DNA from: an uncultured Thermoanaerobaculia bacterium
GTDB taxonomy: Bacteria > Acidobacteriota > Thermoanaerobaculia > Thermoanaerobaculales > Sulfomarinibacteraceae
Length of the DNA: 64,000 nt
NCBI GenBank assembly: GCA_964440565.1
Contig: CAYTTB010000003.1
Span: 70,353 to 134,352, forward strand
Direction of reading: 5' to 3'
In this document: positions 381-30,364 of the stretch, one piece after another
How the letters are laid out: each line of letters starts with the position of its first letter
How positions within the stretch are numbered: position 1 is the first letter of the stretch
Program-made: the position numbers and the translations under genes
The notes under the pieces: generated by a model
What the model was told of the DNA's origin: nothing
Databases searched by the model: none
What the model saw: only the letters and a program-made list of their open reading frames with translations

Positions 381-396
381 GTTACGGGAGAGTGAC
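381..396 (+). promoter_or_regulatory. Candidate enhancer (UAS) palindrome GTTAC-N6-GTGAC about 94 bp upstream of the dsr sigma-54 promoter
   Basis: The sequence is GTTACGGGAGAGTGAC. Its reverse complement, GTCAC-N6-GTAAC, has the same half-sites and spacing as the repeat at 14321-14336. A degenerate copy (CTCACCCGGCCGTTCAC) lies at 312-328. Confidence 0.4.
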
Positions 397-480
397 ATTC
401 CTGACTCCAGCCGGACCGGGGCCGGGGCTGGATCCTGCTGACGGCGCGAGGGTTCACTGCAGGCCGGGGCCGGACCTCGC

Positions 481-496
481 TGGCACACGCGTTGCA
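481..496 (+). promoter_or_regulatory. Sigma-54 (RpoN) -24/-12 promoter of the dsr operon
   Basis: TGGCAC-ACGCG-TTGCA is an exact match to the TGGCAC-N5-TTGCW consensus. It lies just upstream of the first operon gene. Confidence 0.7.
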
Positions 497-518
497 CCTC
501 GCGGCCGCGGGGAGGCAG

Positions 519-2071: not shown

Positions 2072-3678
2072 TGGCTGCGAAGACACCGGACGAGCTGCTC
2101 CAGATCGAGCTGGCGCCGCCGGCCGAGGACTGGATGGACCCGCACCTCGACTTCGAGGCCCGGCGCGGCACCTGGTCGTACCCCGGCGCGCCGAAGAACC
2201 TCGAGTACATGGGGTTCCCCAACCCGCGCGAGTGGTCCCCCACGGACGAGGACTGGAAGCTCCCCCCGGACTGGAGGGAGATCGTCCACCGGGGGTTCCT
2301 CGACCTGCTCCGGCGGTTCCGGTCGCTCCGGGTGTTCATGGACTGCTGCGTGCGGTGCGGGGCGTGCGCCGACAAGTGCCACTTCTTCCTGGGCTCGGGC
2401 GATCCCAAGAACATGCCCGTGCTGCGCGCCGAGCTGCTCAGGTCGGTCTACCGGAGGGACTTCACCACCGCGGGGAAGATCCTCGGGCGGCTCGCGGGTG
2501 CGCGCGAGCTCACCGTGGACGTGATCAAGGAGTGGTTCTACTACTTCTACCAGTGCACCGAGTGCCGCCGCTGCTCGGTGTTCTGCCCGTACGGGATCGA
2601 CACCGCCGAGATCACGATGATGGCCCGGGAGCTGCTCAACCTCCTGGGCATCAACATCAACTGGGTGGTGGAGCCGGTCGCCAACTGCCACCGCACCGGC
2701 AACCACCTGGGAATCCAGCCGCACACCTTCAAGGACAACATCGAGTTCCTCTGCGAGGAGCTCGAGGACGTCACCGGCATCCACATCGAGCCGCCCATCA
2801 ACAAGAAGGGGGCGGAGGTCCTGTTCGTGGTGCCGTCCGCCGACTACTTCGCCGACCCCGGCATCTACACCTTCATGGGGTACCTGCTGCTGTTCGAGCA
2901 CATCGGCCTCGACTACACCCTCTCCGCCTACGCCTCCGAGGGCGGGAACTTCGGCCTGTTCCTCTCCCACGACACCATGAAGCGGCTCAACTACAAGATC
3001 TACGCGGAGGCCAGGCGGCTGGGCGTCAAGTGGATCCTCGGCGGCGAGTGTGGCCACATGTGGCGCGTGATCCACCAGTACATGGACACCATGAACGGCC
3101 CCGCCGACTTCCTCGAGGTCCCGCGGTCCCCCGTGACCGGCACCGTGTTCGAGCACGCGGCGTCCACCCGGATGGTCCACATCTGCGAGTTCACCGCCGA
3201 CCTGATCCGCCACGGCAAGCTCCGGCTCGACCCGTCGCGCAACGATCACCTCAGGGTCACCTTCCACGACTCGTGCAACCCGTCGCGCGCCATGGGGCTG
3301 CTCGAGGAGCCGCGGTACGTGCTGCGGCACGTGGTGAACCACTTCCACGAGATGCCGGAGGGGACGATCCGGGAGAACACGTTCTGCTGCGGCTCCGGCG
3401 CCGGCCTCGGCAACGACGAGAACATGGAGATGCGGATGCGGGGCGGGTTCCCGCGCGCCAACGCGGTGCGCCACGTTCACGAGAGGCACGGCGTCAACCT
3501 GCTCGCCTGCATCTGCGCCATCGACCGGGCGGTGCTGCCGACCCTCATGGAGTTCTGGGTCCCCGAGGTGAAGGTCTCCGGAGTGCACGAGCTGGTCGGC
3601 AACGCGCTGGTGATGGACGGCGAGAAGGAGCGGACCACCGATCTGCGCGGGGAGCCGCTCCCCGGAAGGGAGGGCTGA
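2071..3678 (+). CDS. dsrK: DsrK, HdrD-like Fe-S/CCG-domain catalytic subunit
   Basis: Internal ATG of ORF 1336..3678, at the dsrM stop. Carries CCVRCGACADKCHFF and CTECRRCSVFCPYGID ferredoxin motifs. CCG-type halves are ECGHMW..HDSCNPSR and FCCGSGAG..CICAIDR. Confidence 0.92.
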   Translation: MAAKTPDELLQIELAPPAEDWMDPHLDFEARRGTWSYPGAPKNLEYMGFPNPREWSPTDEDWKLPPDWREIVHRGFLDLLRRFRSLRVFMDCCVRCGACADKCHFFLGSGDPKNMPVLRAELLRSVYRRDFTTAGKILGRLAGARELTVDVIKEWFYYFYQCTECRRCSVFCPYGIDTAEITMMARELLNLLGININWVVEPVANCHRTGNHLGIQPHTFKDNIEFLCEELEDVTGIHIEPPINKKGAEVLFVVPSADYFADPGIYTFMGYLLLFEHIGLDYTLSAYASEGGNFGLFLSHDTMKRLNYKIYAEARRLGVKWILGGECGHMWRVIHQYMDTMNGPADFLEVPRSPVTGTVFEHAASTRMVHICEFTADLIRHGKLRLDPSRNDHLRVTFHDSCNPSRAMGLLEEPRYVLRHVVNHFHEMPEGTIRENTFCCGSGAGLGNDENMEMRMRGGFPRANAVRHVHERHGVNLLACICAIDRAVLPTLMEFWVPEVKVSGVHELVGNALVMDGEKERTTDLRGEPLPGREG

Positions 3679-4064
3679 TGTACGACGCGGGCAAGATCGT
3701 CCCGGGGATCGTGATCTTCCTGCTGCTCGCCACCCTGCCGGTGTGGTGGAGCCTGGCCTCGGGCCAGGAGGTGCGCGCGCCCCGTCTCGAGCTGCCGGAG
3801 GGGCAGCCGGGGTGCGTGGAGCCGGCCGCGCGGATGCGCGCGGTGCACATGGAGCTGCTCGACACCTGGCGGGACCAGGTCGTGCGGTCCGGCGACCGGA
3901 CCTTCGTCACCTGGGACGGCCGGCGGTACGAGAAGAGCCTCACGGGGACGTGCCTCGGCTGCCACGACGACACGACGACGTTCTGCGACCGCTGCCACGA
4001 CTACGTGGCGGTCTCCCCCTACTGCTGGCAGTGTCACGTGGCTCGGAAGGGGGGTGGGCGATGA
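3678..4064 (+). CDS. dsrJ: DsrJ, periplasmic tri-heme cytochrome c
   Basis: 128 aa with an N-terminal TM/signal and three CxxCH motifs (CLGCH, CDRCH, CWQCH). The ATG overlaps the dsrK stop. Confidence 0.85.
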   Translation: MYDAGKIVPGIVIFLLLATLPVWWSLASGQEVRAPRLELPEGQPGCVEPAARMRAVHMELLDTWRDQVVRSGDRTFVTWDGRRYEKSLTGTCLGCHDDTTTFCDRCHDYVAVSPYCWQCHVARKGGGR

Positions 4065-4822
4065 GCTGCGACCGCAGGGGATTCCTCAGGCTCGCGGGGC
4101 TCGCGGCGCTGGCGGCCGCGGGGCGGCCGGCACGGGCGCGGGCGCAGGGGCCGCTGATCCCGGTGGAGGCACCGCTTCGGGGGACGCGGTGGGCGATGGT
4201 GGTGGACCTCGCCGTCTGCCGGGCGCACCCCGACTGCAGGCGGTGCATCGAGGCCTGCGACCGGACGCACAACATCCCCCACCTCGACGACCGCAGGCAC
4301 GAGATCAAGTGGATCTGGAAGGAGCCGTTCGAGCACGCGTTCCGCGACCAGGAGTTCGGCTACGTCCGTGCCGAGCTGCGCGAGGGCCCGGTGCCGCTGC
4401 TCTGCAACCACTGCGACAACCCGCCGTGCGTGCGGGTGTGCCCGACCCGGGCCACCTGGCGGCGCACGGACGGGATCGTGATGATGGACTGGCACCGGTG
4501 CATCGGCTGCCGCTACTGCGTCGCCGCCTGCCCGTACGGGTCGCGCAGTTTCAACTGGGTGGATCCCCGCCCGCACATCCCCGAGGTGAACCGCTCGTAC
4601 CCGACGCGGACCCGGGGCGTGGTGGAGAAGTGCACGTTCTGCGAGGAGCGGCTGGCGCACGGGAAGCTCCCCGCCTGCGTCGAGGCGTGCCCGTACGGCG
4701 CGCTGGTGTTCGGAGACATGGGCGATCCGGACTCGCGGGTGCGGCGGCTGCTGGCGGAGCGGTTCGCGATCCGGCGCAGGCCCTCGCTCGGGACGCAGCC
4801 GCAGGTCTACTACCTGGTGTGA
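4061..4822 (+). CDS. dsrO: DsrO, Tat-exported ferredoxin-like Fe-S subunit
   Basis: Twin-arginine signal DRRGFLRLAG and multiple CxxCxxCxxxCP clusters (CNHCDNPPCVRVCP, CIGCRYCVAACP, CTFCEERL). The ATG overlaps the dsrJ stop. Confidence 0.9.
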   Translation: MSCDRRGFLRLAGLAALAAAGRPARARAQGPLIPVEAPLRGTRWAMVVDLAVCRAHPDCRRCIEACDRTHNIPHLDDRRHEIKWIWKEPFEHAFRDQEFGYVRAELREGPVPLLCNHCDNPPCVRVCPTRATWRRTDGIVMMDWHRCIGCRYCVAACPYGSRSFNWVDPRPHIPEVNRSYPTRTRGVVEKCTFCEERLAHGKLPACVEACPYGALVFGDMGDPDSRVRRLLAERFAIRRRPSLGTQPQVYYLV

Positions 4823-4823
4823 G

Positions 4824-5987
4824 GTGACCATGCTGGAGAAGGCGCTTTCCGGTGACCGGCGGTACTGGGGGTGGGTGGCGCTGCTGGGCGCGATCGTCCT
4901 GGTCGGCTTCCTCAACTACCTCCGCCAGCTGGAGGTGGGCCTTGGCATCACCGGGATGTCCAGGGACGTCACCTGGGGGTTCTACATCGCGCAGTTCACC
5001 TTCCTGGTGGGCGTGGCGGCGTCGGCCGTCATGGTGGTGCTCCCGTACTACCTCCACAGCTTCAAGGTGTTCGCCAGGATCACGATCCTCGGCGAGTTCC
5101 TGGCGGTGGCGGCGGTGACCATGTGCCTGCTGTTCATCGTCGTGGACCTCGGCCAGCCCGGGCGGATGTTCAACATCGTGCTCCACCCGACGCCGCACTC
5201 GATCCTGTTCTGGGACATGATCGTCCTCAACGGGTACCTGCTCCTCAACGTGGTGATCACCCGGGTCACGCTGCTCGCCGAGCGGAAGGGGGAGCCGCCG
5301 CCGCGGTGGATCAAGCCGGTGATCTACCTCTCCATCCCGTGGGCGATCAGCATTCACACCGTGACCGCGTTCATCTACTCCGGACTCGCGGCGCGGCCGT
5401 TCTGGCTGACGGCGATCCTGGCTCCCCGCTTCCTGGCCTCGGCGTTCGCGTCCGGCCCGGCGCTGCTCGTCCTGCTCTGCCTGATACTGCGCCGGTTCTC
5501 CTCCTGGGATCCCGGGCTCGAGGCGATCGGGAAGCTGGCGGTGATCGTCACCTACGCCATGGCCATCAACGTGTTCTTCGTCCTCGTCGAGCTCTTCACC
5601 GCGCTCTACTCCGACATCCCGGAGCACGTGGTCCACTTCCGCTACCTGTACCTCGGGCTCGACGGCCACTCCCGGCTCGTGCCGTGGATGTGGGCCTCCG
5701 CGGTGCTCTCGGTGGTCTCGCTGGTCCTGCTCCTCGTCCCGGCGGCCCGTCGGCGGCCGGGCACGCTGGCCATCGCCTGCGCGGCCGTGTTCGTGGCCAT
5801 CTGGATCGACAAGGGGCTGGGGATGGTGGTGACGGGCTTCATTCCCAACCCGCTGGGCGAGATCACCGAGTACTGGCCCACGCTCCCCGAGGCGCTCATC
5901 GCGCTGGGCGTCTACGGCGTCGGGGCGCTCATGACCACGGTCTTCTACAGGATCGCGCTCGCGGTACGCCGGGAGGCGGAGGGGTGA
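4824..5987 (+). CDS. dsrP: DsrP, NrfD/PsrC-like integral membrane quinone-interacting subunit
   Basis: 387 aa with about 10 TM helices. Starts 2 nt after the dsrO stop; GTG 4824 or ATG 4830. Confidence 0.88.
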   Translation: MTMLEKALSGDRRYWGWVALLGAIVLVGFLNYLRQLEVGLGITGMSRDVTWGFYIAQFTFLVGVAASAVMVVLPYYLHSFKVFARITILGEFLAVAAVTMCLLFIVVDLGQPGRMFNIVLHPTPHSILFWDMIVLNGYLLLNVVITRVTLLAERKGEPPPRWIKPVIYLSIPWAISIHTVTAFIYSGLAARPFWLTAILAPRFLASAFASGPALLVLLCLILRRFSSWDPGLEAIGKLAVIVTYAMAINVFFVLVELFTALYSDIPEHVVHFRYLYLGLDGHSRLVPWMWASAVLSVVSLVLLLVPAARRRPGTLAIACAAVFVAIWIDKGLGMVVTGFIPNPLGEITEYWPTLPEALIALGVYGVGALMTTVFYRIALAVRREAEG

Positions 5988-5988
5988 G

Positions 5989-7653
5989 ATGAGCGCGCCA
6001 CCCCGCCGGGTGGTGGTGGTGGGGGCCTCGGCGGCGGGGCTCCGGTGCGCGGCCCGCCTGAAGCGGCTCCTCCCGGACTGCCGCGTCACGGTGGTGGAGG
6101 AGCGGGCGGCGTTCTCGTACGCGGCCTGCGGGCTGCCGTACGTGCTCTCGGGCGACATCGCCGAGCTCGACGACCTCCGGCGGACGGCCTACGGGGCGAT
6201 CCGCGACCGGCGGTACTTCGAGGCGGTGAAGGGGATCGAGCTCCTGGAGGGCCACCGGGCGGTGGCCGTGGATCCGGATCGCCGGCTCGTGACCGTGGAG
6301 GGCCCCTCGGGGCCACACGAGCTCGGCTGGGACGATCTGGTCCTCGCCACCGGCGCCCGGGGGCGCCGGCTCCCGGGCCAGCCGGAGCACCCGCGGGTGC
6401 GCACCTTCCACACCTGGGACGACGTGGCCCCCCTGAAGCGAGCCCTGGCGCGGGGCGAGCTCGAGCGGGTGGCGGTGGTGGGCGCGGGGATGGTGGGGGT
6501 GGAGCTCGCGGAGGCGTTCCGCTCGCTGTGGGGCGCGGAGGTCACGGTCCTGGAGGCCGCGCCGCACCCGCTCCCGGCGGTGCTGGACCCGGAGCCCGCG
6601 GCGCTGGTCGCGGCGGAGCTCGAGCGCCAGGGGGTGGACCTGCGGTGCGGGGCCCCGGTCGGGGCCGTCGTGCCGGACGGGGAGGCGGTGGCCGTGCGGG
6701 TCGGCGGCGAGGAGCTCCGGGTGGACGCGGTGGTGGTGGCGGTGGGCGTGGAGCCGCGGGGGGAGCTCGCGCGGGCCGCGGGGGTCGAGCTCGGGGCCAC
6801 CGGGGCGATCCGGGTGGACGGGCGGCTGGCCACCTCCGTGCCCCACGTCTGGGCGGCGGGGGACTGCGTGGAGGTGACGCACGCCGTCACGGGCGAGCGG
6901 GTGCACCTGCCGCTCGGGTCGCTGGCCAACCGCCAGGGGCGCGTCCTGGCCAACGTGCTCGCGGGCCGCGACGACCGGTTCGGGCCGGTGGCCGGGACGG
7001 TGGCGGTGAAGGCGTTCGACCTGGTGGCGGCGGCGACGGGGTGCTCGCTCGAGGCCGCACGGGCCCGCGGGCTGGCGGCGCGGGCGATATGGGTGACCAC
7101 CGACGACCGCGCCCACTACTGGCCGGAGGCGGAGCGCCTGTACCTCGAGGCGGTGGTGGAGGAGGGGAGCGGACGGCTGCTGGGGGTGCAGGCGGTGGGA
7201 CGCGATCGTGCGGCGGCCGCGGTGGATCTGGCCGCCCAGGTGATCCTGGCCGGGGGGACGGCGGACGACCTGCTGCGGATCGAGCACGGCTACGCGCCGC
7301 CGGTGGCGCCGGCGCTCAGCCCGCTGCACGTGCTGGCCGCCGCCGCGGCCAACGCGGTGGAGGGGGTGCGCCCGCTGCCGCCGCGCTCCACCCCCGGCGA
7401 GAGGGCCGTCCTCGACGTCCGCCTCCCGGAGGAGCGGGAGGCCCGGCCGTGGCCCGGGAGGTCGCGTCACGTGCCGCTCGAGGAGCTGCGGTCGCGGCTC
7501 GGGGAGGTGGCCGCCGGCGGGCCGTGGCTGGTGGTGTGCGAGCGGGGCGCCAGGTCCGCGGAGGCGGTCAGGCTCCTCTCCGCGACGGGGGTGGACGCGG
7601 TGTACCTCGGCGGCGGGATGCTCTGGCGGCACGCGGCGGGAGGCGGGCCGTGA
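5989..7653 (+). CDS. CoA-disulfide reductase-family flavoprotein with C-terminal rhodanese domain (persulfide/polysulfide reductase-like)
   Basis: VVVVGASAAG FAD fold, redox Cys in SYAACGLPY, a second dinucleotide fold VAVVGAGMVG, and C-terminal rhodanese loop CERGARS. Confidence 0.85.
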   Translation: MSAPPRRVVVVGASAAGLRCAARLKRLLPDCRVTVVEERAAFSYAACGLPYVLSGDIAELDDLRRTAYGAIRDRRYFEAVKGIELLEGHRAVAVDPDRRLVTVEGPSGPHELGWDDLVLATGARGRRLPGQPEHPRVRTFHTWDDVAPLKRALARGELERVAVVGAGMVGVELAEAFRSLWGAEVTVLEAAPHPLPAVLDPEPAALVAAELERQGVDLRCGAPVGAVVPDGEAVAVRVGGEELRVDAVVVAVGVEPRGELARAAGVELGATGAIRVDGRLATSVPHVWAAGDCVEVTHAVTGERVHLPLGSLANRQGRVLANVLAGRDDRFGPVAGTVAVKAFDLVAAATGCSLEAARARGLAARAIWVTTDDRAHYWPEAERLYLEAVVEEGSGRLLGVQAVGRDRAAAAVDLAAQVILAGGTADDLLRIEHGYAPPVAPALSPLHVLAAAAANAVEGVRPLPPRSTPGERAVLDVRLPEEREARPWPGRSRHVPLEELRSRLGEVAAGGPWLVVCERGARSAEAVRLLSATGVDAVYLGGGMLWRHAAGGGP

Positions 7654-8748: not shown

Positions 8749-10536
8749 ATGTTCCCGGTGATGCTCGACATCCGCGGGCGGCGGTGCCTGGTGGTGGGTG
8801 GCGGCGGGGTGGCGCTGCGGAAGGTGGAGGGGCTGCTCGCCGAGGGCGGGGAGGTCACGGTGGTGGCGCCCGAGGTGGTGGATCCCATCGTCCGGCTCGC
8901 CGGGGCGGGGGCGCTTCGGCTCGAGCGGCGCCCCTACCGCGACGGGGAGGCGGAGGGATACGCCCTGGTCTTCGCCGCCACGGACGACCGCGAGGTGAAC
9001 CGGCGGGTGTTCGAGGACGCCGAGCGGGCGGGAGTCTGGGTCAACGTGGCCGACGACCCCGAGCTGTGCACGTTCCACCTCCCGGCGACGATCCGCCGGG
9101 GGAGACTGCGGATCGCCCTCGCTTCCGGGGGCGAGGCCCCGTTCGTGGTCCGCCGGCTCCGGCAGGCGCTGGAACGGCGCCTGGGCCAGGAGTGGGGCGA
9201 GTGGCTCGAGGCGGCGGCGCGGTTCCGCGAGCGGGTGCGCGCGGAGGTGGCGGACCGGAGGCTCCGCGAGCGCCTCTACGACCGGTTCTTCCGGAGCTCG
9301 GTGGACACCCGGCAGCTCTCGGTGCGCGTGCCCACGGAGCGCGAGGTGGCCGCCTGGCTGGAGGAGGGCGGTGCGGAGCCTCCCGCGCACCGCGGGAGCG
9401 TGGGCGGCGGGAGGCCGGAGCGGCGGGCGGGCCTGGTGTCGCTGGTGGGGGCGGGGCCCGGGGAGCCCGGCCTCCTCACCCTCCGGGGCCACCGGCGGCT
9501 GATGGCCGCGGACGCGGTGGTGTACGACCGCCTGGCCGCCCCGGCGCTGCCGCCCGAGCTCCCGGCGCGGGTGGAGCTGCACTGCGTGGGGAAGACCGCC
9601 GGGCACCACCCGGTGCCGCAGGAGGAGATCACCGCGCTCCTCGTGCGGCTGGCGCGCGAGGGCAAGCGGGTGGTGCGGCTGAAGGGTGGCGACCCGTACG
9701 TCTTCGGGCGCGGCGGCGAGGAGGCCGAGGCGCTCCGGGCGGCGGGCGTCCCGGTGGAGGTGATCCCGGGGGTGACGGCCGGGCTGGCGGCGCCGGCGTG
9801 GGCCGGGATCCCGGTCACCCACCGCCGGGAGGCGGTCCGGGTCACGCTGGTCACCGCGCACGAGTGCATCAAGAGCGCTGGCCCTCAGGTGCGATGGGAC
9901 CTGCTCGCCCGGGACCCGCACGCCACGCTCGTGGGCTACATGGGCGTGACCTCGCTGCCCACGGTGGTCGAGCGGCTCCTCGCGGCGGGGATGGATCCGG
10001 CCACGCCGGCGGCCGTCGTGCAGCGGGGAACCACCAGCGGGCAGCGCACCGTGCGGGCGTCCCTGGCCGAGCTGCCGCGGGCCGCGCGGGAGGCCCGGAT
10101 CCGGCCTCCGGCGGTGTTCGTGATCGGTCCCACCGTGCGCCACGCGGAGCGGCTAGACTGGGTGGGGCGGCTGCCCCTGGTCGGACGGCGGGTGGCGGTG
10201 GCACCGGAGGCGTGGGGGCTGGCGGAGGCGCTGGAGCTCGCCGGCGCGGAGGTGGTCCGGGTGCCGGTGCCGCTCACGCCGGCGGCGCGGGTGGCGCTCG
10301 GGGCGCTGCCGCTCACGGACTGCGTCGTCGGGTCGAGCGCCGAGGTGGAGGCGCTGGACGGCGAGCGGGGCGGCCCGGGGTGGGAGGGACGGGTGGGCGC
10401 GTGGTGTCTGGGTCGTGCCGCGGCGGAGAGGGCGCGGGCCCTGGGGTGGGAGACGGTGGTGGAGCTCGGGAGGGACGACGGCGATGAGGCGGCGGTGGTG
10501 GCCGCGATGGCGGGTGAGCTGGCAGCGGTGGGCTAG
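8749..10536 (+). CDS. cysG: Siroheme synthase (precorrin-2 dehydrogenase/ferrochelatase plus uroporphyrinogen-III C-methyltransferase) with an extra C-terminal HemD-like segment
   Basis: N-terminal CLVVGGGGVALRK Rossmann fold, SUMT core LVGAGPGEPGLLTLRG..VVRLKGGDP, then about 130 further residues. RBS GGGGGAGG. Confidence 0.85.
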   Translation: MFPVMLDIRGRRCLVVGGGGVALRKVEGLLAEGGEVTVVAPEVVDPIVRLAGAGALRLERRPYRDGEAEGYALVFAATDDREVNRRVFEDAERAGVWVNVADDPELCTFHLPATIRRGRLRIALASGGEAPFVVRRLRQALERRLGQEWGEWLEAAARFRERVRAEVADRRLRERLYDRFFRSSVDTRQLSVRVPTEREVAAWLEEGGAEPPAHRGSVGGGRPERRAGLVSLVGAGPGEPGLLTLRGHRRLMAADAVVYDRLAAPALPPELPARVELHCVGKTAGHHPVPQEEITALLVRLAREGKRVVRLKGGDPYVFGRGGEEAEALRAAGVPVEVIPGVTAGLAAPAWAGIPVTHRREAVRVTLVTAHECIKSAGPQVRWDLLARDPHATLVGYMGVTSLPTVVERLLAAGMDPATPAAVVQRGTTSGQRTVRASLAELPRAAREARIRPPAVFVIGPTVRHAERLDWVGRLPLVGRRVAVAPEAWGLAEALELAGAEVVRVPVPLTPAARVALGALPLTDCVVGSSAEVEALDGERGGPGWEGRVGAWCLGRAAAERARALGWETVVELGRDDGDEAAVVAAMAGELAAVG

Positions 10537-11413
10537 CCTGGGGGCGGTGCTGGCGGCCGCCGCCCTCGCCTCCGCCGGTGAGCCCCCGGGCGAGATCCAG
10601 CGGCTGGGCGTGGTGGGGTTCTACAACCCGCGGCTCATGGTGCTCAAGTACCAGCCGCTGGCCGACTACCTCTCGGACACGACGCCGTGGCGGTGGGAGC
10701 TCGACATCTCCACCGACTACCTCAGCGTCGAGGACGGGCTGTGCGGGGGGCGTCTGGCGCTGGCCTACCTGGGTCCGTTCACCTACACGAGGACGCACGA
10801 GCGGTGCGGCGCCGAGCCGGTGGTGCGCCTCGACACGGCCGGCCGGCCCACCTACCGGAGCCTGATCCTGGTGCGGCACGACAGCGACATCCGGCGGCTC
10901 GCCGACCTCGCGGGGAAGGTGTTCGCGTTCGGCTCGCCGCTGTCCACCTCCTCGCACCTGGTCCCCCGGGCCATGCTGCTCGAGGCCGGGCTCGAGCCGG
11001 GCCGCGACCTCCGGTGCCGGTACTACGGGCACCACGACCGGGCGGCCCGGGCGGTGGTGCTGCGCGAGGCGGCCGCCTGCGGCGTCCGCGACCTGGTGGG
11101 CGAGCGGTTCGTGGGGCGCGGCCTCAGGGTGCTGGCCGCCTCGCGGCCGCTGCCCAACTTCCCGCTCGTGGCCGGGCCGGGCACCGGCCCCGAGGTTCGC
11201 CGGGAGGTGATCCGGGCGCTGGTGGACCTGCCGGAGCGTGATCCCGGTCTGCGTGCCCGGATCGCGCGCTGGGACGAGGAGCTCGCGGCGGGGTTCGCGC
11301 GGTGCTCCGCCGCGGACTACGCCCCGATCCGCGCGCTGATACTCCGGGTGTTCGGCCCGCGCGGTCTCACCGCGGGACCGGCGGAGCTGCGGTGCGGGCC
11401 GGTGAGCCGATGA
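10484..11413 (+). CDS. PhnD-like periplasmic substrate-binding protein (sensor-associated)
   Basis: Signal peptide, then the GFYNP..YQPLADYL..AYLGPFTY..LILVR..GKVFAFGSPLSTSSHLVPR pattern typical of phosphonate-type binding proteins. The stop overlaps the kinase ATG. Confidence 0.7.
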   Translation: MRRRWWPRWRVSWQRWASLGAVLAAAALASAGEPPGEIQRLGVVGFYNPRLMVLKYQPLADYLSDTTPWRWELDISTDYLSVEDGLCGGRLALAYLGPFTYTRTHERCGAEPVVRLDTAGRPTYRSLILVRHDSDIRRLADLAGKVFAFGSPLSTSSHLVPRAMLLEAGLEPGRDLRCRYYGHHDRAARAVVLREAAACGVRDLVGERFVGRGLRVLAASRPLPNFPLVAGPGTGPEVRREVIRALVDLPERDPGLRARIARWDEELAAGFARCSAADYAPIRALILRVFGPRGLTAGPAELRCGPVSR

Positions 11414-12881
11414 GACTCCGGCTCGGCCTCCGCACCAAGTTCTTCCTCTACTCGAACACCCTCATCGTGGTGACGATGACCCTGGTGGCGCTGCTCGGCG
11501 TGGCGCACGAGCGGCGGGCGCGGTACGACGAGGTGAGGCGGCGGGCGCTGAGCATCACCGAGGCGCTCGCGATCCCCATCACCGACGCGCTGCTCTACGA
11601 GGAGCTCGATCTCGTCGCCGAGAGCGGGCTCATCGACAGCTACCTCGAGGAGGTGGTGAGCCGGAACCGTGACCTGGTGCTGTACGTGGTGGTGACGGAC
11701 CGGAGAGGCCGCATCACCCACTCCACCCGGTGGGACTGGCTGGGGGAGCGGTTCGCCCGCGCGCTGGGGCGCGAGGCGGTGGGAGCCCCGCCGGTGGTGG
11801 AGACGTTCGAGGTGGACGGGGTGGAGACGCTCGAGGTGCGCACGACGCTCAACATCTCCACCCGCTACTGGGGCTGCCTGGCGGCGGGGTTCTCGCTCGA
11901 GGGTGTCCGCGAGCGCGTGGCGCTGCTCGCCAGGCGAGCGGCGACGGTGGCGTTCCTCCTCATGCTGGCGAACTCGCTCCTCACCGCGATCTACGTGGAG
12001 TCGCTGATCCGTCCGATCTTCGAACTCAACGAGCGGATGAAGCGGGCGGGCAGGGGCGATCTCTCGGTCCGGGCCGACGAGCGGCGGGGAGACGAGGTGG
12101 GCGAGCTCGCCCGGGCGTTCAACCGGATGATGGACGAGCTGGAGGCGGCCCGGGATCGGGAGGAGGTGCGGAAGGCCCAGCTCGCGCACACCGAGAAGAT
12201 GGTGGCGGTGGGGACGCTGGCCGCCGGCGTCGCGCACGAGGTCAGCAACCCGCTCGCCGGGATCCTGGCGTGCCTCGAGAACCTCCGGCGTGACCCCGAC
12301 GACGTCGAGATGCGCGAGCGCTACCTGGAGCTGATCCGCGAGGGACTCGAGCGCATCGAGCGCACCGTGCGCAATCTGCTCGACTTCTCGAGGCCGCGGG
12401 AGATGCAGCTCGAGCCCACGTCCGTCAATCACGCGCTCCAGCACGTGGCGGAGCTCGTGGAGTACCAGCTGCGCAAGGCGGGGATCGAGCTCGAGTGGGA
12501 CCTGGATCCCGAGGATCCGGTGGTGATGGCGGACCACTTCCAGATGGAGCAGCTGTTCCTCAACCTGGTGCTCAACGCGATCCAGGCGATGCCGGAGGGC
12601 GGGACGCTCACGCTCCGCACCCGGGCGGCACGGGGGCGGGTGGTCGCGGAGGTGGCCGACACCGGGTGCGGGATCGCGCCCGGGAACCTCGGCCGGATCT
12701 TCGATCCGTTCTTCACCACCCGGGAGGTGGGCGAGGGGACTGGCCTCGGCCTGGCCGTGAGCGATACCATCGTGCGGGCGCACGGCGGGTCCATCGAGGT
12801 GGAGAGCGCCGTGGGCCGCGGCTCGACGTTCCGGGTCGTCCTGCCCTCGAGGCGGGGCCCGCGCGGGGGGGAGGAACCGAC

Positions 12882-12885
<4 letters not shown>
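11410..12885 (+). CDS. Membrane sensor histidine kinase (two TM helices, periplasmic domain, HAMP, HisKA, HATPase)
   Basis: H-box VAHEVSNPLAGI, N box LNLVLNAIQA, G boxes DTGCGI and GTGLGLAV. Overlaps both neighbours via ATGA. Confidence 0.85.
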
Positions 12886-14270
<1,385 letters not shown>

Positions 14271-14280
14271 GCGCGGGGAC

Positions 14281-14336
14281 GTCACCCGCGCGTGACGCGC
14301 GGCCGGGACCGCCGTTCCGGGTCACCCGCGCGTAAC
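14281..14336 (+). promoter_or_regulatory. Two copies, 40 bp apart, of a 16-bp palindromic box (candidate activator binding sites)
   Basis: GTCACCCGCGCGTGAC at 14281-14296 and GTCACCCGCGCGTAAC at 14321-14336. They share a 13-nt exact core. The proximal copy is centred about 92 bp upstream of the -24 GG. Confidence 0.45.
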
Positions 14337-14418
14337 CTCGGCGCCCCGCCCGGCCGTCGCCGCGCCGTGCATCTCCCGCGACAGCGAGGGTTGCGGCTCG
14401 CCGCGGCAGCGGCCGAGG

Positions 14419-14434
14419 TGGCATGCCGCTTGCT
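14419..14434 (+). promoter_or_regulatory. Sigma-54 -24/-12 promoter
   Basis: TGGCAT-GCCGC-TTGCT has the exact GG-N10-GC spacing of the RpoN consensus. Confidence 0.7.
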
Positions 14435-14445
14435 CGTCCCCTGAC

Positions 14446-14586
14446 AGCCCCCGGTACCGGGGGCGTGGGAGAGGATCACGGAGCCCCCCCAACGGGGCCC
14501 GGGCCCGGGCGGCGCGGGTCCCGCTTCATCCCACTCCTCTCCACAACCCCTTCCCGGGGTGGCCGCGCGAAAGCGCGGCTCTTTTT
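14446..14586 (+). ncRNA. Candidate sigma-54-dependent small RNA (about 140 nt) or attenuated leader
   Basis: Bounded by the promoter at 14419-14434 and the intrinsic terminator at 14561-14586. Has a 5' perfect 16-nt palindrome CCCCCGGTACCGGGGG (14448-14463). The C/U-rich stretch TCCTCTCC (14535-14542) is complementary to GGGAGAGGA (14467-14475) and to SD sequences. No convincing ORF. Confidence 0.45.
14561..14586 (+). terminator. Rho-independent terminator
   Basis: GCCGCGC-GAAA-GCGCGGC, a 7-bp GC stem with a GAAA loop, followed by TCTTTTT. This is one of the very few T-runs in the window. Confidence 0.65.
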
Positions 14587-14736
14587 CGGCGCCCCCGCTC
14601 TTGCCGCCACGGTGGGTGGGGGGAGAAGGCGGCGCGCGGCTCGCTGCGGCTGGATCCCCGCATGGCGGGGGGCCGCCGCCGACGGCCGGGACGGGCGCGG
14701 CGCCGGGATCCCTTCGCCCCCCCGGACCGGCGGGGC

Positions 14737-14752
14737 TGGCACGGGCGCTGCA
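14737..14752 (+). promoter_or_regulatory. Sigma-54-like promoter for the downstream secreted-protein gene
   Basis: TGGCAC-GGGCG-CTGCA. The -24 box is perfect and the -12 keeps TGC. It lies about 46 bp upstream of ATG 14798. Confidence 0.5.
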
Positions 14753-14797
14753 TTGATGGCGGTGCGGGGGTACACTCGTCCCCCGGGGAGGTGCGGC

Positions 14798-15382
14798 ATG
14801 AGGCGTGCGGGGCTCGTGGCGGTGCTGGCGGTGACGGTGGGGCTGGCCGTGCCGGCGGCGGCCGGCGAGGACGCGGCGCGGGCGGCGGTGCGGGAGCGGC
14901 TCGCGGACATGCTGGCGGGGGAGAACCTCGACAAGGTCGAGTTCCGCGCGCTGGACTTCGACCAGGCGATGCGGTGGATCTACCTCGCGGTGGACACCTA
15001 CCTCGACCGGGCGGCGGCCCGCCTGGGGGGAGACGAGGCCGCGGGAGAGTACGGGGCGGAGATCCTCGCGGGTCTCGAGGACCACACGGTGCGGTACGCC
15101 GACGAGCAGGGGCTCGAGGTGGTGGGAGAGCAGGTGCTGCGGGTGGAGAGTGACGAGCAGGCCCGGCAGCTGGGGGAGCTGCTGTACCGGGTGGCGGAGC
15201 TCCTCCGCGAGGCCCACGTGGGCCGCGGCGTGGCGCTCCGGAGCGCGGCGCGGAAGGTGTTCGAGACGATGGCCCCCGTCGCCGGCAACCGGCAGTCCCT
15301 GGTCACCCAGTACGTGGTGCGGATGCGCTCCCTCACCCCGGAGGAGCGGCGCGACATGGTTCGCTGGTTGCAGGGGGGGTGA
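14798..15382 (+). CDS. Hypothetical secreted protein
   Basis: Internal ATG of ORF 14423..15382 after GGGGAGG. Signal peptide MRRAGLVAVLAVTVGLAVPAAAG. No family recognised. Confidence 0.55.
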   Translation: MRRAGLVAVLAVTVGLAVPAAAGEDAARAAVRERLADMLAGENLDKVEFRALDFDQAMRWIYLAVDTYLDRAAARLGGDEAAGEYGAEILAGLEDHTVRYADEQGLEVVGEQVLRVESDEQARQLGELLYRVAELLREAHVGRGVALRSAARKVFETMAPVAGNRQSLVTQYVVRMRSLTPEERRDMVRWLQGG

Positions 15383-15400: not shown

Positions 15401-16090
15401 TCACCGCTCGCGGTACCAGCGGGTGCCGTCGTCCCACACGATCACGGCGAACCCCTGCTCGAGCCGCCCCTTGCAGCACCCCGGGGCGAACCCGCCGATG
15501 AGCGTGTCGGGGCCCGTGAGCCGCCCGGCGACCTCGCGGTCGGGGAGCACGAAGGTGAGTCGCGCCCCTTCCTGGCGGATCTCGAGCGGGCCGCTCGGCG
15601 TGCGCCACACGCCGCGGAGGTCCGGCCGGCCCTCCAGCAGGGGTGCCGCCGTCACGGCGGTGGGCCGCGGTGGGGGCGTCGGGGCCGGCGCGGGCGGGGG
15701 CGCCGTGGGCGCCGGGGCGCCCTCGCCGGCGGGCGCGGCCGAGGCCGCCGCCACGGCGAACCACGGGCGCGGCGCGCCGCCGCCCGCGGGGACGTAGCTT
15801 CCGGCCATCGTGGGCACCTCGGCCCCCGGGGTCGCGACCCACCCTTCCCACAGCTCGACCCCGTCCGGGGCCGAGCGCCGGAGGACGATCCGGCGGCCCG
15901 CGAGCCGGCCCTCGACGGGCCGGCCGAGCAGCGTCCCGGAGAGCTCGCCGCCGCGCCTCACGGCGAGGCGGAGGAGCCCGGCGGTGCCGTCCGCGTTGAC
16001 CTGCCACACCTGTGTCGCGGCGCGCTCCTGGGCGCCGGCCGCCGCCGCCACCGCCAGCGCCACCGCCAGCACGAGCCCTGGGTTCCGCAT
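15401..16090 (-). CDS. Hypothetical secreted two-domain protein with a Pro/Ala-rich linker
   Basis: Signal peptide MRNPGLVLAVALAVAAAAGAQ. Lies 85 bp downstream of the porin gene on the same strand. Confidence 0.55.
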   Translation of the reverse strand: MRNPGLVLAVALAVAAAAGAQERAATQVWQVNADGTAGLLRLAVRRGGELSGTLLGRPVEGRLAGRRIVLRRSAPDGVELWEGWVATPGAEVPTMAGSYVPAGGGAPRPWFAVAAASAAPAGEGAPAPTAPPPAPAPTPPPRPTAVTAAPLLEGRPDLRGVWRTPSGPLEIRQEGARLTFVLPDREVAGRLTGPDTLIGGFAPGCCKGRLEQGFAVIVWDDGTRWYRER

Positions 16091-16175
16091 CGTCGGCCTC
16101 CGCGGAAAGTGTAGCGAAGAGAGGAGGGCCCCGGGGGTGCCGCCCCGGGGCCCGGGCGCGTCGTGCCGGCTCAGC

Positions 16176-17336
16176 TCAGAACTTGTACTGCCACTGCAGC
16201 ACCCAGCCGTCGTCCCTGTACCCCCACTTGCCGGTCCAGGCGTCGGTGTCGCCGCTGGCCAGGATGTAGTTGAACACGATCTTGTGCCGCTGGAAATCAC
16301 GTGCCTTGTACCTGATGGGGGACAGGTACCAGTTGAAGCCGATGTAGGTGTTGCCGAGATCCGAGGAGCCGGAGGCGGGGTTGTCGGCGGAGGCCTGGTA
16401 GTGCTTGACCATCGCCTCGACGTTGCGTGCCACCATGTAGCCGAACATCACGGACCAGGTGTCCTGGTCGAAATCCTTCACACCGAGAACGTTGTGACCG
16501 CTGACGTACTCGAAGGCGGCCTCCCACGTGGGGTGGCTGGTGAGCACGCCCAGGTCCCACACCGAGTAGTCCTCGGTCCGGGGACCACCGGCCTGCTCGG
16601 AGACGCCGTAGGAGGCCTCGAGGTGAAGGGGACGCCCGTAGTCGTAATGGACCCGGACCGCATAGGCGAGGGCGTCGCCCAGCAGGGACTTGTCCCACTT
16701 CACCGCGGCGGAGCGGCCGGCCGGGTTGAAGACGCCGATGTCGTAGCCGAAGCCGTACCCGCGGCGCTCGTGCCCCATCTCCAGCCCGTTGGTCTTCATC
16801 TTCCTGTCCGCGGGCTGGCCGATGAGCCGCCCCGACAGCATCAGGCCGAAGTCGCGCTCGAAGACCAGCCCCTTGTCGAGCTTGTTGCGCTCCACGATGT
16901 CCAGGTTCCAGCCGGGGTTGGTGAAGCTCATCCCGATGGGGGTCTTGATCATGCCCAGCCGGATGAAGGCGGCGTTGGACCACCGGTACGCCACGAAGGC
17001 GTCCTTGATCATCTTCGGCAGGCCACCCTCGTCCTTGCTGTGCGACTGGTTGAAGTCGAGGAACAGCTTCCCCGCGATGGGGCCGTGGAAGTAGTTGAAG
17101 CCGATCCGGATGCGCTGGGCCTTGAAGAACAGGCCGCCCTCGGCCGACTGGCCGTCCCCGCCGCGCATCTCGAACTGGGAGAAGCCGTAGATCTTGACCT
17201 TGATCTCCTTGTCCCCGATCTTGTCCTTGAGCGTGATCTTGGCGCTCGCGGTGGCGGGCGCGAGGACGATCGCGACGATCGCCAGACCCGTCACCGCCAG
17301 TGCCGCCAGCGTGTTCCGTGTGCCCTCTGGTCGCAT
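16176..17336 (-). CDS. Outer-membrane beta-barrel porin
   Basis: Signal peptide ending ATASA, alternating beta-strand pattern rich in Y/F/G/N, C-terminal OMP signature QWQYKF. RBS GGGGAGG. Confidence 0.75.
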   Translation of the reverse strand: MRPEGTRNTLAALAVTGLAIVAIVLAPATASAKITLKDKIGDKEIKVKIYGFSQFEMRGGDGQSAEGGLFFKAQRIRIGFNYFHGPIAGKLFLDFNQSHSKDEGGLPKMIKDAFVAYRWSNAAFIRLGMIKTPIGMSFTNPGWNLDIVERNKLDKGLVFERDFGLMLSGRLIGQPADRKMKTNGLEMGHERRGYGFGYDIGVFNPAGRSAAVKWDKSLLGDALAYAVRVHYDYGRPLHLEASYGVSEQAGGPRTEDYSVWDLGVLTSHPTWEAAFEYVSGHNVLGVKDFDQDTWSVMFGYMVARNVEAMVKHYQASADNPASGSSDLGNTYIGFNWYLSPIRYKARDFQRHKIVFNYILASGDTDAWTGKWGYRDDGWVLQWQYKF

Positions 17337-17403
17337 CTCAACCTCCCCGTGAAGTTCCACCGTTCGGGGGACCGGCGCTCCGCTCCCCTCTCGCCGTGAT
17401 CGA

Positions 17404-17418
17404 GCAAGGAGTGTGCCA
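17404..17418 (-). promoter_or_regulatory. Sigma-54 -24/-12 promoter of the porin gene
   Basis: The plus strand reads GCAA-GGAGT-GTGCCA, giving TGGCAC-ACTCC-TTGC on the minus strand. It is about 68 nt upstream of the porin start. Confidence 0.7.
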
Positions 17419-17575
17419 GCCGTGAATCGGTTCACAAGCGCACGGACGGGGGCTGGAACCTCTGCAGGGCCACGGGATGCATCGCCCGCGAGGAGGCCCG
17501 GGGGCGGCGGGGTTACCCGGGCGTTACCGGCGGGATGTGAATGTCGTGTAACGCGGTCGCGGCGTCACGGGTGCT

Positions 17576-30167: not shown

Positions 30168-30169
30168 GG

Positions 30170-30305: not shown

Positions 30306-30364
30306 TGGCCAGGTCGGATCGGCGGGGAGAGCGCTGGCGGCCGGGACGGCGGGGGCGCTGAGCG

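What the first reader, a model, noticed from the sequence alone, without database searches (positions are those of the whole stretch)
14271..14797. Candidate sigma-54-dependent small RNA immediately downstream of the NtrC-type activator
The 527-bp gap after the activator gene contains a complete small transcription unit with no convincing ORF.
- Two copies of a 16-bp palindromic box lie exactly 40 bp apart: GTCACCCGCGCGTGAC at 14281 and GTCACCCGCGCGTAAC at 14321.
- A consensus sigma-54 promoter, TGGCAT-N5-TTGCT, lies at 14419-14434, about 92 bp from the proximal box.
- About 125 nt further on is a textbook intrinsic terminator: GCCGCGC-GAAA-GCGCGGC plus TCTTTTT, at 14561-14586. T-runs are almost absent elsewhere in this DNA.

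The predicted RNA of about 140 nt starts with a perfect 16-nt palindrome. It also carries a C/U-rich TCCTCTCC element. That element can pair internally with GGGAGAGGA, or with Shine-Dalgarno sequences of the GGAGAGGAGG type used in this genome.

A second sigma-54-like promoter at 14737-14752 serves the next gene. The first transcript therefore looks autonomous rather than a simple 5' UTR. The layout recalls activator-adjacent sigma-54 sRNAs such as the LuxO/Qrr arrangement.
Basis: partly seen in the sequence, partly recalled or inferred. Interest (0 to 1): 0.7.

Follow-up and report, generated by a model that had tools for sequence, protein, structure and literature searches.

The report
New sigma-54-controlled small RNA gene
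The gap after the NtrC-type activator gene holds a real, conserved small RNA gene with its own sigma-54 promoter, activator-binding boxes and terminator; it is an undescribed RNA family of a familiar kind, co-regulated with sulfur-respiration (dsrMKJOP) genes in uncultured, probably acidobacterial, bacteria.

Summary
Comparative data show the unit is a gene. I found 10 distinct homologous loci from metagenomes and MAGs.

- **Shared parts.** All 10 carry a sigma-54 promoter (TGGCAY-N5-TTGCT; TGGAAC in L089). Most carry GTTAC-N6-GTNAC boxes centred near -117, and often near -160. All carry a C7-8 run, an invariant 15-nt AUCCCACUCCUCUCC, an 11-bp helix with compensatory changes, a short hairpin and an invariant terminator stem.
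- **Orientation.** In three relatives the whole cassette lies on the opposite strand, divergent from the neighbouring 194-aa gene. It therefore cannot be only a 5' leader.
- **Coding and database checks.** No reading frame is conserved. No Rfam 15 family matches.
- **Regulon.** The same box plus sigma-54 promoter precedes an RsbRD_N-dsrMKJOP operon at window 381-496. A related GTTAC-N6-GTTAC box and sigma-54 promoter precede a porin operon at 17403-17527.

My verdict is a new member of a known kind: an activator-adjacent sigma-54 sRNA, like Qrr, Pxr, CrcZ and Dv_sRNA2.

Three things remain untested or unsupported. Expression and targets are untested. The internal pairing of the C/U box is not better than chance in relatives. 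In five relatives the RNA may also serve as the leader of the 194-aa gene.

The parts
14281..14296 (.). Distal activator (bEBP) box GTCAC-N6-GTGAC, centred about -156 from the predicted TSS
   Evidence: Sequence. The motif is enriched 3 vs 0.10 expected. Distal boxes lie at -150 to -162 in L086, L123, L125 and L127.
14321..14336 (.). Proximal activator box GTCAC-N6-GTAAC, centred about -116 from the predicted TSS
   Evidence: The proximal box is centred at -116 to -119 in 7 of 10 loci. In L083 and L086 it lies at -117.5 from the sRNA start. L083 and L094 share one box between the two divergent promoters.
14419..14434 (+). Sigma-54 promoter TGGCAT-N5-TTGCT (-24 GG / -12 GC)
   Evidence: All 10 homologs keep GG-N10-GC with TTGCT.
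14445..14586 (+). Predicted small RNA, about 142 nt. The start is inferred as 12 nt after the -12 GC. This is the shortest of the 10 homologs (142-259 nt).
   Evidence: Covariance model R1 scores it 95 bits, E 1e-25, as a single copy in the window.
14447..14464 (+). 5' hairpin (GCCCCCGG-UA-CCGGGGGC)
   Evidence: Homologs also begin with a hairpin, but of different sequence.
14484..14490 (+). Near-invariant C7 run (C7-8 in all homologs), predicted mostly unpaired here
   Evidence: Six of its positions are invariant columns in A2. P(unpaired) is 0.86 in the window RNA.
14493..14523 (+). Helix P2, 11 bp, the covariation-supported stem
   Evidence: 4 pairs have double changes, in 14 cells. 96.8% of cells are paired, against 34-50% when the partner is slid. 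0/500 shuffles reach the covariation score.
14528..14542 (+). Nearly invariant C/U-rich box AUCCCACUCCUCUCC: 14 of 15 positions are identical in all 10 homologs and the first A is U in L127. It resembles an anti-Shine-Dalgarno sequence and is the candidate seed.
   Evidence: Longest invariant block of the family. Unpaired in the core consensus fold.
14546..14560 (+). Hairpin P3 (A-CCCC-UUCCC-GGGG-U)
   Evidence: A 4-6 bp hairpin forms at this place in all 10 homologs. It comes in two sequence types, CCCC...GGGG and CUCCC...GGGAG.
14561..14586 (+). Intrinsic terminator: stem GCCGCGC/GCGCGGC, then a U tail
   Evidence: The 7-bp stem is invariant in all 10 homologs while its loop varies. It holds the only TTTTT in 64 kb.
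14737..14752 (+). Second sigma-54-like promoter TGGCAC-N5-CTGCA, serving the 194-aa gene
   Evidence: Equivalent promoters occur in L083, L086 and L094, with a weak one in L128. None occurs in L089, L109, L123, L125 or L127.
14798..15382 (+). Gene for a 194-aa secreted, mostly helical protein of unknown family. It is the neighbour of the RNA in all 10 loci.
   Evidence: No Pfam or NCBIfam hit. Orthologs lie next to the RNA in every locus. Alignment A6.
12882..14270 (+). NtrC-type sigma-54 activator (receiver + AAA+ + HTH_8), the presumed binder of the boxes
   Evidence: Pfam. Orthologs of 74-83% identity are abundant in MAGs.
10484..12885 (+). PhnD-like periplasmic binding protein (10484-11413) and sCache/HAMP histidine kinase (11410-12885), the sensor half of the system
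381..496 (+). Same-type box GTTACGGGAGAGTGAC (381-396, centred -118.5) plus sigma-54 promoter TGGCACACGCGTTGCA (481-496), in front of RsbRD_N-dsrMKJOP
   Evidence: DsrM, DsrK and DsrP score above the NCBIfam equivalog cut-offs. DsrJ carries three CXXCH motifs. RsbRD_N and a DsrO-like Fer4_11 protein.
17403..17527 (-). Sigma-54 promoter TGGCACACTCCTTGCT (17418-17403) with box GTTACCCGGGCGTTAC (17512-17527, centred -127.5), in front of a Porin_4 gene and a 229-aa gene
   Evidence: L083 has a sigma-54 match before its ortholog.

Best explanation
Window 14281-14586 is a self-contained gene for a small non-coding RNA of about 142 nt.

**Proposed mechanism**
1. The NtrC-type response regulator encoded just upstream is activated by its kinase and PhnD-like binding protein.
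2. The regulator binds the two GTYAC-N6-GTRAC boxes at about -116 and -156.
3. It then opens a sigma-54 promoter, and transcription stops at a strong intrinsic terminator.
4. The RNA belongs to one regulon with the adjacent 194-aa secreted protein, an RsbRD_N-dsrMKJOP operon and a porin operon.
5. It most likely acts in trans by base pairing. The candidate seeds are its nearly invariant, largely single-stranded C-rich segments: the C7-8 run and the anti-Shine-Dalgarno-like AUCCCACUCCUCUCC. They would pair with purine-rich ribosome-binding regions of target mRNAs.

**Shown versus inferred**
- Shown at sequence level: the conserved cassette, one covarying helix, the conserved box positions, the lack of a conserved ORF, and orientation-independence.
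- Inferred only: transcription, dependence on RpoN and the regulator, the trans-acting mode, and the targets.
For: **Conservation of the cassette**
- There are 10 distinct homologous loci.
- The covariance model gives 95-116 bits in each, and nothing in 80 paralogous NtrC loci or elsewhere in the window.
- A sigma-54 promoter is kept in 10/10.
- The proximal box is centred at -116 to -119 in 7/10, with distal boxes near -150 to -162.

**RNA-level signals**
- Helix P2 has 4 pairs with compensatory changes. 96.8% of cells are paired against 34-50% in slid controls, and 0/500 shuffles reach the score.
- A 15-nt C/U box (14 positions invariant) and a near-invariant C-run sit beside variable helices and loops.
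- No reading frame is shared across the box, and L089 has no ORF over it.

**Independence from neighbouring genes**
- The cassette is on the opposite strand in L083, L086 and L094.
- In L094 it is unlinked from any activator gene. The flanking genes there encode an MgsA-like ATPase and a TPR protein.

**Regulon and precedent**
- The box and the sigma-54 motif are both strongly enriched in the window. They co-occur in front of dsrMKJOP, and a related GTTAC-N6-GTTAC box sits before the porin operon's sigma-54 promoter.
- Activator-adjacent sigma-54 sRNAs are known: DVU0679/Dv_sRNA2 (PMC3333781) and pxrK-pxrR-pxr (PMC5684412).
Against: - There are no transcript data of any kind.
- Targets are unknown. 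The TIR of the 194-aa gene is the best of 43 crude TIRs in the window (-29.4 kcal/mol), but only at z = -1.85. The pairing is not kept in L109 or L128.
- In single-sequence folds the 3' half of the C/U box is often paired, which would limit its use as a seed. That pairing is not better than chance in 9 of 10 homologs.
- In L089, L109, L123, L125 and L127 no separate promoter lies between the terminator and the 194-aa gene. Part of the RNA's role there could be in cis.
- Relatives L087, L088, L132 and L133, with activators of 74-79% identity, lack the RNA beside the activator.
Confidence: 0.6

Rival explanations
1. The RNA is mainly a cis-acting leader or attenuator of the 194-aa gene. Transcription from the single sigma-54 promoter would either stop at the terminator or read through into the gene. 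The short RNA would then be a by-product, or have a dual function.
For: In five tandem loci (L089, L109, L123, L125, L127) only 56-115 nt separate the terminator from the gene, and no sigma-54 promoter lies between them. In L123, L125 and L127 the U tract is short and set 4 nt away from the stem. The RNA and the gene are neighbours in all 10 loci.
Against: In L083, L086 and L094 the cassette is on the opposite strand. It points away from the gene and has nothing downstream to control, yet it is fully conserved. The window and L128 have a separate promoter for the gene. The window terminator is the strongest in the region.
Confidence: 0.15
2. The RNA acts by binding or sequestering a protein, in the manner of CrcZ or RsmZ, or through a terminator-stem-binding protein, rather than by pairing with mRNAs.
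For: The 7-bp terminator stem never varies in 10 homologs although its loop does, whereas helix P2 varies freely. That pattern suggests sequence-specific recognition. CrcZ is a CbrB/sigma-54-dependent protein sponge linked to its two-component system (PMC8871633). A conserved stem segment of Pxr SL3 controls its accumulation (PMC5684412).
Against: There is only one copy of each conserved motif, not the repeated motifs typical of sponges. The C/U box looks like an anti-Shine-Dalgarno sequence, as in base-pairing sRNAs of the cuckoo/NfeR1 type (PMC4615179, PMC10746234).
Confidence: 0.12
3. The interval encodes a small protein, and the RNA-level features are secondary.
For: High-GC sequence gives long open frames. 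Most homologs have an open frame running over the box.
Against: The frame across the invariant box differs among homologs (0, 1 or 2), and L089 has none. Start codons are not conserved. The P2 loop length varies by 1, 2 and 3 nt. Substitutions follow base pairing, not codon position.
Confidence: 0.02
4. The motifs are regulatory DNA or chance matches without a dedicated RNA product. For example, the boxes might serve only the 194-aa gene.
For: The boxes could also act on the 14737 promoter from -434 and -474. No expression data exist.
Against: The 117-nt core downstream of the promoter is conserved with covariation, and it ends in a conserved terminator in all loci. Motif counts are far above shuffles.
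Confidence: 0.03

Closest known systems
Pxr sRNA of Myxococcus xanthus (pxrK-pxrR-pxr)
   Same: The layout is the same: histidine kinase gene, NtrC-like response regulator gene, then an sRNA gene with a predicted sigma-54 promoter and an upstream enhancer-binding region. It has several stem-loops, including a terminal stem with a conserved segment needed for accumulation (PMC5684412).
   Different: It comes from a different phylum (Myxococcota, Cystobacterineae). No sequence or structure match was found: no Rfam hit at E <= 10. Pxr controls fruiting-body development. Here the co-regulated genes are dsrMKJOP, a porin and a secreted 194-aa protein, and the cassette occurs in either orientation.
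Dv_sRNA2 downstream of the sigma-54 response regulator DVU0679 (Desulfovibrio vulgaris), and the sigma-54 sRNAs of D. alaskensis G20
   Same: An sRNA gene directly downstream of its sigma-54-dependent response regulator, in an organism with dissimilatory sulfur metabolism. The regulator was shown to bind there, and the arrangement is conserved in relatives (PMC3333781, PMC4045070).
   Different: Homology was not tested, because I did not have the sequence. The phylum differs. The function of Dv_sRNA2 is also unknown.
Qrr sRNAs and LuxO (Vibrio)
   Same: An NtrC-type activator plus sigma-54 drives small, terminator-ended, base-pairing sRNAs. By my own recollection, qrr1 lies next to luxO and is divergent from it. 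For LuxO as the NtrC-type activator in the quorum-sensing circuit, see PMC4878744 and PMC11407668.
   Different: There is no homology. Qrr sRNAs are Hfq-dependent with a conserved 32-nt region and several paralogs. Here there is a single copy per locus and different conserved motifs.
CrcZ and the CbrA-CbrB system (Pseudomonas)
   Same: An sRNA whose sigma-54-dependent transcription is controlled by a two-component system (PMC8871633). By my own recollection, crcZ lies directly downstream of cbrB.
   Different: CrcZ is about 400 nt, carries repeated A-rich motifs and sequesters Hfq/Crc. The RNA here has single C-rich motifs.
Cuckoo / CcsR / NfeR1 (alpha-r14) sRNAs with anti-Shine-Dalgarno CCUCCUCCC motifs
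   Same: A conserved C/U-rich anti-SD-like motif serves as the pairing element against ribosome-binding sites. NfeR1 is wired to NtrBC (PMC4615179, PMC8034643, PMC10746234).
   Different: Those RNAs carry the motif two or three times, in hairpin loops. Here a related but different 15-mer occurs once, between helices, together with a C7-8 run. There is no Rfam match. The promoter type and the phylum also differ.

Membership tests
Activator-adjacent sigma-54 (bEBP)-dependent sRNA genes (the kind that includes Qrr, Pxr, CrcZ, Dv_sRNA2) | A -24 GG / -12 GC sigma-54 promoter directly upstream of the RNA | tested here: met
   TGGCAT-N5-TTGCT at 14419-14434. The pattern occurs 4 times vs 0.06 expected. 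GG-N10-GC with TTGCT is kept in 10/10 homologs.
Activator-adjacent sigma-54 (bEBP)-dependent sRNA genes (the kind that includes Qrr, Pxr, CrcZ, Dv_sRNA2) | Enhancer-like activator binding sites about 100-160 bp upstream | tested here: met
   Two boxes lie at -116 and -156. The motif occurs 3 times vs 0.10 expected. The positions are conserved in relatives. Actual binding by the regulator was not tested.
Activator-adjacent sigma-54 (bEBP)-dependent sRNA genes (the kind that includes Qrr, Pxr, CrcZ, Dv_sRNA2) | A non-coding, structured product ended by an intrinsic terminator | tested here: met
   Covarying helix P2. The terminator is conserved. No frame is conserved. All of this is sequence-level evidence only.
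Activator-adjacent sigma-54 (bEBP)-dependent sRNA genes (the kind that includes Qrr, Pxr, CrcZ, Dv_sRNA2) | The transcript exists and depends on RpoN and the cognate activator | not testable with these tools
   No expression data were available. This needs a Northern blot or RNA-seq, plus mutants or a heterologous reporter.
Activator-adjacent sigma-54 (bEBP)-dependent sRNA genes (the kind that includes Qrr, Pxr, CrcZ, Dv_sRNA2) | Acts in trans on other genes | tested here: inconclusive
   Orientation-independence and the unlinked L094 copy argue for a stand-alone gene. The target scans were not specific.
Any described RNA family (Rfam 15, including Qrr, 6C, the cuckoo-type families and the Acido motifs, if present there) | A match to the family covariance model | tested here: not met
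   No hit reached the gathering score in the window region or in 9 homolog loci. In 14200-14900 the best E-value was 0.22, to an unrelated archaeal snoRNA. I did not verify which of the named families Rfam 15 holds.
Cuckoo / CcsR / NfeR1 anti-SD sRNAs | The CCUCCUCCC motif repeated in loops of two or more hairpins | tested here: not met
   There is one CUCCUCUCC-containing box per RNA. It lies between helices P2 and P3, not in a hairpin loop.
Cis-regulatory leader (riboswitch or attenuator) of the downstream gene | Always upstream of the regulated gene, and on the same strand | tested here: not met
   It is on the opposite strand in L083, L086 and L094. The arrangement fits a leader in 5 other loci.
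Small-protein gene | A conserved reading frame with a conserved start | tested here: not met
   Frames across the invariant box differ, and L089 has none. The indels are not multiples of three.

The most novel reading that the evidence does not exclude
The RNA is the post-transcriptional arm of a sigma-54 two-component regulon that switches on the DsrMKJOP sulfite-reduction complex in uncultured Acidobacteriota-like bacteria. On this reading it is an anti-Shine-Dalgarno-mimic riboregulator. It silences alternative respiratory or envelope genes, or feeds back on its own regulon. It has been evolutionarily rewired between three configurations: leader-plus-sRNA, tandem, and divergent with a shared enhancer. 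It would be the first riboregulator tied to dissimilatory sulfur metabolism in this phylum.
Probability: 0.2. Interest if true: 0.7.

Novelty: new member of a known kind. Interest (0 to 1): 0.55.

Why it matters
To my knowledge, no small RNA has been characterised functionally in Acidobacteriota-like bacteria. Regulation of their dissimilatory sulfur genes is also essentially unknown.

This locus offers a compact, testable circuit:
- a binding-protein/kinase/NtrC sensor;
- a defined DNA box, GTTAC-N6-GTNAC, at fixed distances from its promoters;
- four sigma-54 promoters within 18 kb, serving dsrMKJOP, the RNA, a secreted protein and a porin;
- a conserved RNA with an obvious candidate seed.

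The circuit could be rebuilt in E. coli without culturing the organism.

The three gene arrangements also give a natural series for asking how an sRNA gene and a leader interconvert. It is not a new principle. Sigma-54 sRNAs next to their activators are well known.

Tried and rejected
1. **Genome-collection scan with the activator protein.** None carries the RNA. That scan was wasted.
2. **Metagenome scan with the 19-mer CTTCATCCCACTCCTCTCC.** It gave 33 loci, of which only L094, L109 and L121 are true homologs. The rest are chance matches in unrelated, mostly coding, DNA.
3. **Rfam.** Nothing relevant was found in the region or in the homolog loci.
4. **Internal pairing of the C/U box with a 5' purine box.** Single-sequence and alignment folds predict it. 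The complementarity is no better than in mononucleotide-shuffled 5' domains in 9 of 10 homologs (p 0.22-0.91). In the window p = 0.04. I do not count it as a conserved helix.
5. **Target prediction.**
   - A whole-window duplex scan is dominated by G-rich noise.
   - Among 43 crude translation-initiation regions, the 194-aa gene ranks first and the CoA-disulfide-reductase-like gene second, but at z of only about -1.8.
   - Across loci the 194-aa TIR ranks in the top 0.06-3% in eight loci, but only 19-23% in L109 and L128.
   - This is what any strong SD would give, so the result is inconclusive.
6. **Inverted repeats flanking the cassette** (I1: 14341-14362 / 14677-14698). They do not bound the segment that would have to invert, because that segment must include the boxes. 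I treat them as chance in 80% G+C DNA.
7. **Function of the 194-aa protein.**
   - No Pfam, NCBIfam or PDB-sequence hit.
   - The word-index search found only 5 relatives.
   - The AlphaFold model from 5 sequences has pLDDT 46, so I ran no fold search.
8. **Organism names.** The cluster look-up gave none. The taxonomic placement rests only on MAG labels of close activator homologs.
Full report
**Observation**

- Two 16-bp boxes lie 40 bp apart: 14281-14296 (GTCACCCGCGCGTGAC) and 14321-14336 (GTCACCCGCGCGTAAC).
- A sigma-54 promoter, TGGCAT-N5-TTGCT, lies at 14419-14434.
- A terminator, GGCCGCGC-GAAA-GCGCGGC plus CTTTTT, lies at 14561-14586.
- A second sigma-54-like promoter, TGGCAC-N5-CTGCA, lies at 14737-14752, before an ORF at 14798-15382.

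Only the outer 5-mers of the boxes are truly palindromic.

The features exceed chance.
- The box pattern GTYAC-N6-GTRAC occurs 3 times in the 64-kb window against 0.10 expected.
- The sigma-54 pattern occurs 4 times against 0.06 expected.
- TTTTT occurs once on either strand of the window, and that is the terminator tail.
- The predicted 142-nt RNA (14445-14586) folds at -84.8 kcal/mol, with z = -3.25 against dinucleotide shuffles.

**Setting**

The gene order upstream is siroheme synthase (CysG), a PhnD-like periplasmic binding protein, an sCache/HAMP histidine kinase, and an NtrC-type activator at 12882-14270.

The closest activator homologs (74-83% identity) come from MAGs. These are labelled mostly Acidobacteria, Thermoanaerobaculales or Holophagae, and once Gemmatimonadota. 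The window contig itself is in JGI metagenome 3300023442. This is not a myxobacterium, so the obvious candidate, Pxr, is an analogue at best.

**Relatives**

The genome-collection scan returned only distant paralogs. I therefore fetched contigs through exact activator orthologs, through orthologs of the 194-aa protein, and through a DNA 19-mer.

Ten distinct loci carry a homologous cassette: the window, L083, L086, L089, L094, L109, L123, L125, L127 and L128. All of them have:
- a sigma-54 promoter with GG-N10-GC and TTGCT (TGGAAC instead of TGGCAY in L089);
- an RNA of 142-259 nt, of which the window's is the shortest;
- a C7-8 run;
- the 15-mer AUCCCACUCCUCUCC, with 14 positions invariant and the first A replaced by U in L127;
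- helix P2 and a short hairpin P3;
- a terminator whose 7-bp stem (GCCGCGC/GCGCGGC) never varies, while its loop does.

A covariance model of the 117-nt core scores each locus at 95-116 bits. It finds nothing else in the window, in 80 paralogous NtrC loci, or in L087, L088, L132 and L133.

**It is an RNA, not a peptide or bare DNA motifs**

Helix P2 (window 14493-14523) has four pairs with compensatory double changes, seen in 14 cells. One pair shows five pair types.
- 96.8% of cells are paired, against 34-50% when the 3' partner is slid.
- 0 of 500 column shuffles reach the covariation score.

Hairpin P3 exists in all homologs in two sequence versions, CCCC...GGGG and CUCCC...GGGAG.

No reading frame is shared across the invariant box. 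L089 has no ORF over it. The P2 loop varies in length by 1, 2 and 3 nt.

No Rfam 15 family matches the region or the homolog loci.

**It is autonomous**

In L083, L086 and L094 the entire promoter-RNA-terminator unit lies on the opposite strand relative to the flanking genes.
- It is divergent from the 194-aa gene.
- In L083 and L094 a single GTYAC-N6-GTRAC box lies between the two sigma-54 promoters at similar distances: -117.5/-107.5 in L083 and -96.5/-105.5 in L094.
- In L086 the box is at -117.5 from the RNA start but -162.5 from the 194-aa gene's start.

A mere 5' leader would not survive inversion intact.

In L094 no activator, kinase or binding-protein gene lies within about 5 kb. The neighbours there are an MgsA-like ATPase and a TPR protein. 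The RNA plus the 194-aa gene therefore form the conserved unit, and it can sit away from the regulator.

**Complication**

In five of the seven tandem loci (L089, L109, L123, L125, L127) only 56-115 nt separate the terminator from the 194-aa gene, with no sigma-54 promoter between them.
- In these loci the gene is probably expressed by read-through.
- The RNA may then double as its leader.
- The window and L128 have a second promoter.

**Regulation**

The proximal box is centred at -116 to -119 from the predicted start in 7 of 10 loci. A second box lies about 40 bp further upstream in several of them.

Within the window, the same box (381-396) sits at -118.5 from another sigma-54 promoter (481-496). 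That promoter heads an operon encoding an RsbRD_N protein, DsrM, DsrK, DsrJ, a DsrO-like protein and DsrP.
- DsrM, DsrK and DsrP score above the NCBIfam equivalog cut-offs.
- DsrJ has three CXXCH motifs.

A fourth sigma-54 promoter (17418-17403, minus strand) has GTTACCCGGGCGTTAC at -127.5. It heads a Porin_4 gene and a 229-aa gene.

The simplest reading is one regulon of the adjacent activator, comprising dsrMKJOP, the RNA, the 194-aa protein and the porin operon. Binding itself is inferred.

**Mechanism**

The longest invariant stretches outside helices are the C-run and the C/U box. The C/U box resembles an anti-Shine-Dalgarno sequence.

The most likely mode is pairing with purine-rich ribosome-binding regions. 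This is how cuckoo/NfeR1-type sRNAs work (PMC4615179, PMC10746234).

I could not identify targets.
- The TIR of the 194-aa gene is the best of 43 crude TIRs in the window.
- Its margin is small (z = -1.85), and the pairing is not conserved in L109 or L128.

The complementarity is not better than chance in 9 of 10 homologs, so I do not treat it as a conserved helix.

The invariant terminator stem hints at a sequence-specific partner or a stability determinant, as reported for Pxr SL3 (PMC5684412).

**Comparison and verdict**

The layout matches known cases:
- pxrK-pxrR-pxr (PMC5684412);
- DVU0679/Dv_sRNA2 in Desulfovibrio (PMC3333781);
- sigma-54 sRNAs in D. alaskensis G20 (PMC4045070);
- LuxO/Qrr (PMC4878744);
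- CbrB/CrcZ (PMC8871633).

There is no detectable homology to any described family.

The locus is therefore a new member of a known kind. It is well supported as a gene by comparative evidence. Its expression, regulator dependence and targets remain untested.

Attempts to assign a function to the 194-aa protein failed.

Noticed in passing
window 381-7653: A sigma-54 promoter with the same activator box heads an operon. It encodes an RsbRD_N-domain protein (about 519-1082), dsrM (1079-2071), dsrK (2071-3678), dsrJ (about 3675-4064, three CXXCH motifs), a dsrO-like gene (about 4061-4822), dsrP (4824-5987) and a CoA-disulfide-reductase-like flavoprotein (5989-7653). Sigma-54/NtrC control of dsrMKJOP in an Acidobacteriota-like MAG is itself worth a look.
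   Followed up: partly
window 30164-30314 (+): A molybdenum/tungsten cofactor (Moco) riboswitch, Rfam RF01055, scoring 52.8 bits against a gathering score of 36. An ORF follows from about 30362.
   Followed up: no
window 15401-17336 (-): A Porin_4-like 386-aa gene and a 229-aa secreted protein with a proline/alanine-rich linker. They sit behind their own sigma-54 promoter and are conserved next to the 194-aa gene in L083, L123, L125 and L128. The function is unknown.
   Followed up: partly
L089 4380-4760: Several copies of a repeat of about 120 nt (agggacctcgcgcccgggccgtaggcccggcgag...) fill the spacer between the activator gene and the RNA promoter. They look like a REP or miniature mobile element.
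   Followed up: no
L087 4387-5235: In this relative (activator 76% identical) the 850-nt spacer after the activator has no RNA homolog. It is full of short GTGACCG / CCGTGACC repeats, and the next gene encodes an AAA_16/nSTAND-like ATPase.
   Followed up: no
L088 4557-5921 and L132 4931-6301: Relatives that lack the RNA have a phosphate-selective-porin-like gene (Porin_O_P) directly after the activator. L132 also has a SoxA/TsdA cytochrome gene upstream of cysG. Both fit an oxyanion or sulfur theme for this sensor system.
   Followed up: no
window 14341-14362 and 14677-14698: A 22-nt inverted repeat, 86% complementary, flanks the promoter-RNA-terminator segment but not the boxes. It is probably chance in 80% G+C DNA.
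   Followed up: partly
L090, L095 and L114 (Ga0160428/Ga0160429 contigs): The exact 19-mer of the C/U box occurs in unrelated contigs and is followed there by two hairpins. It lies about 50 nt upstream of, and on the strand opposite to, the start codon of an ORF beginning MNIGSIKQNDGG (by my recollection a DUF736-like N-terminus; not tested). The weak partial CM hits (22 bits) are most likely chance.
   Followed up: partly
window 14561-14580 and all homolog loci: The terminator stem GCCGCGC/GCGCGGC is identical in all 10 homologs, although the loop and flanks vary and helix P2 covaries freely. This is an unusual constraint for a terminator.
   Followed up: partly
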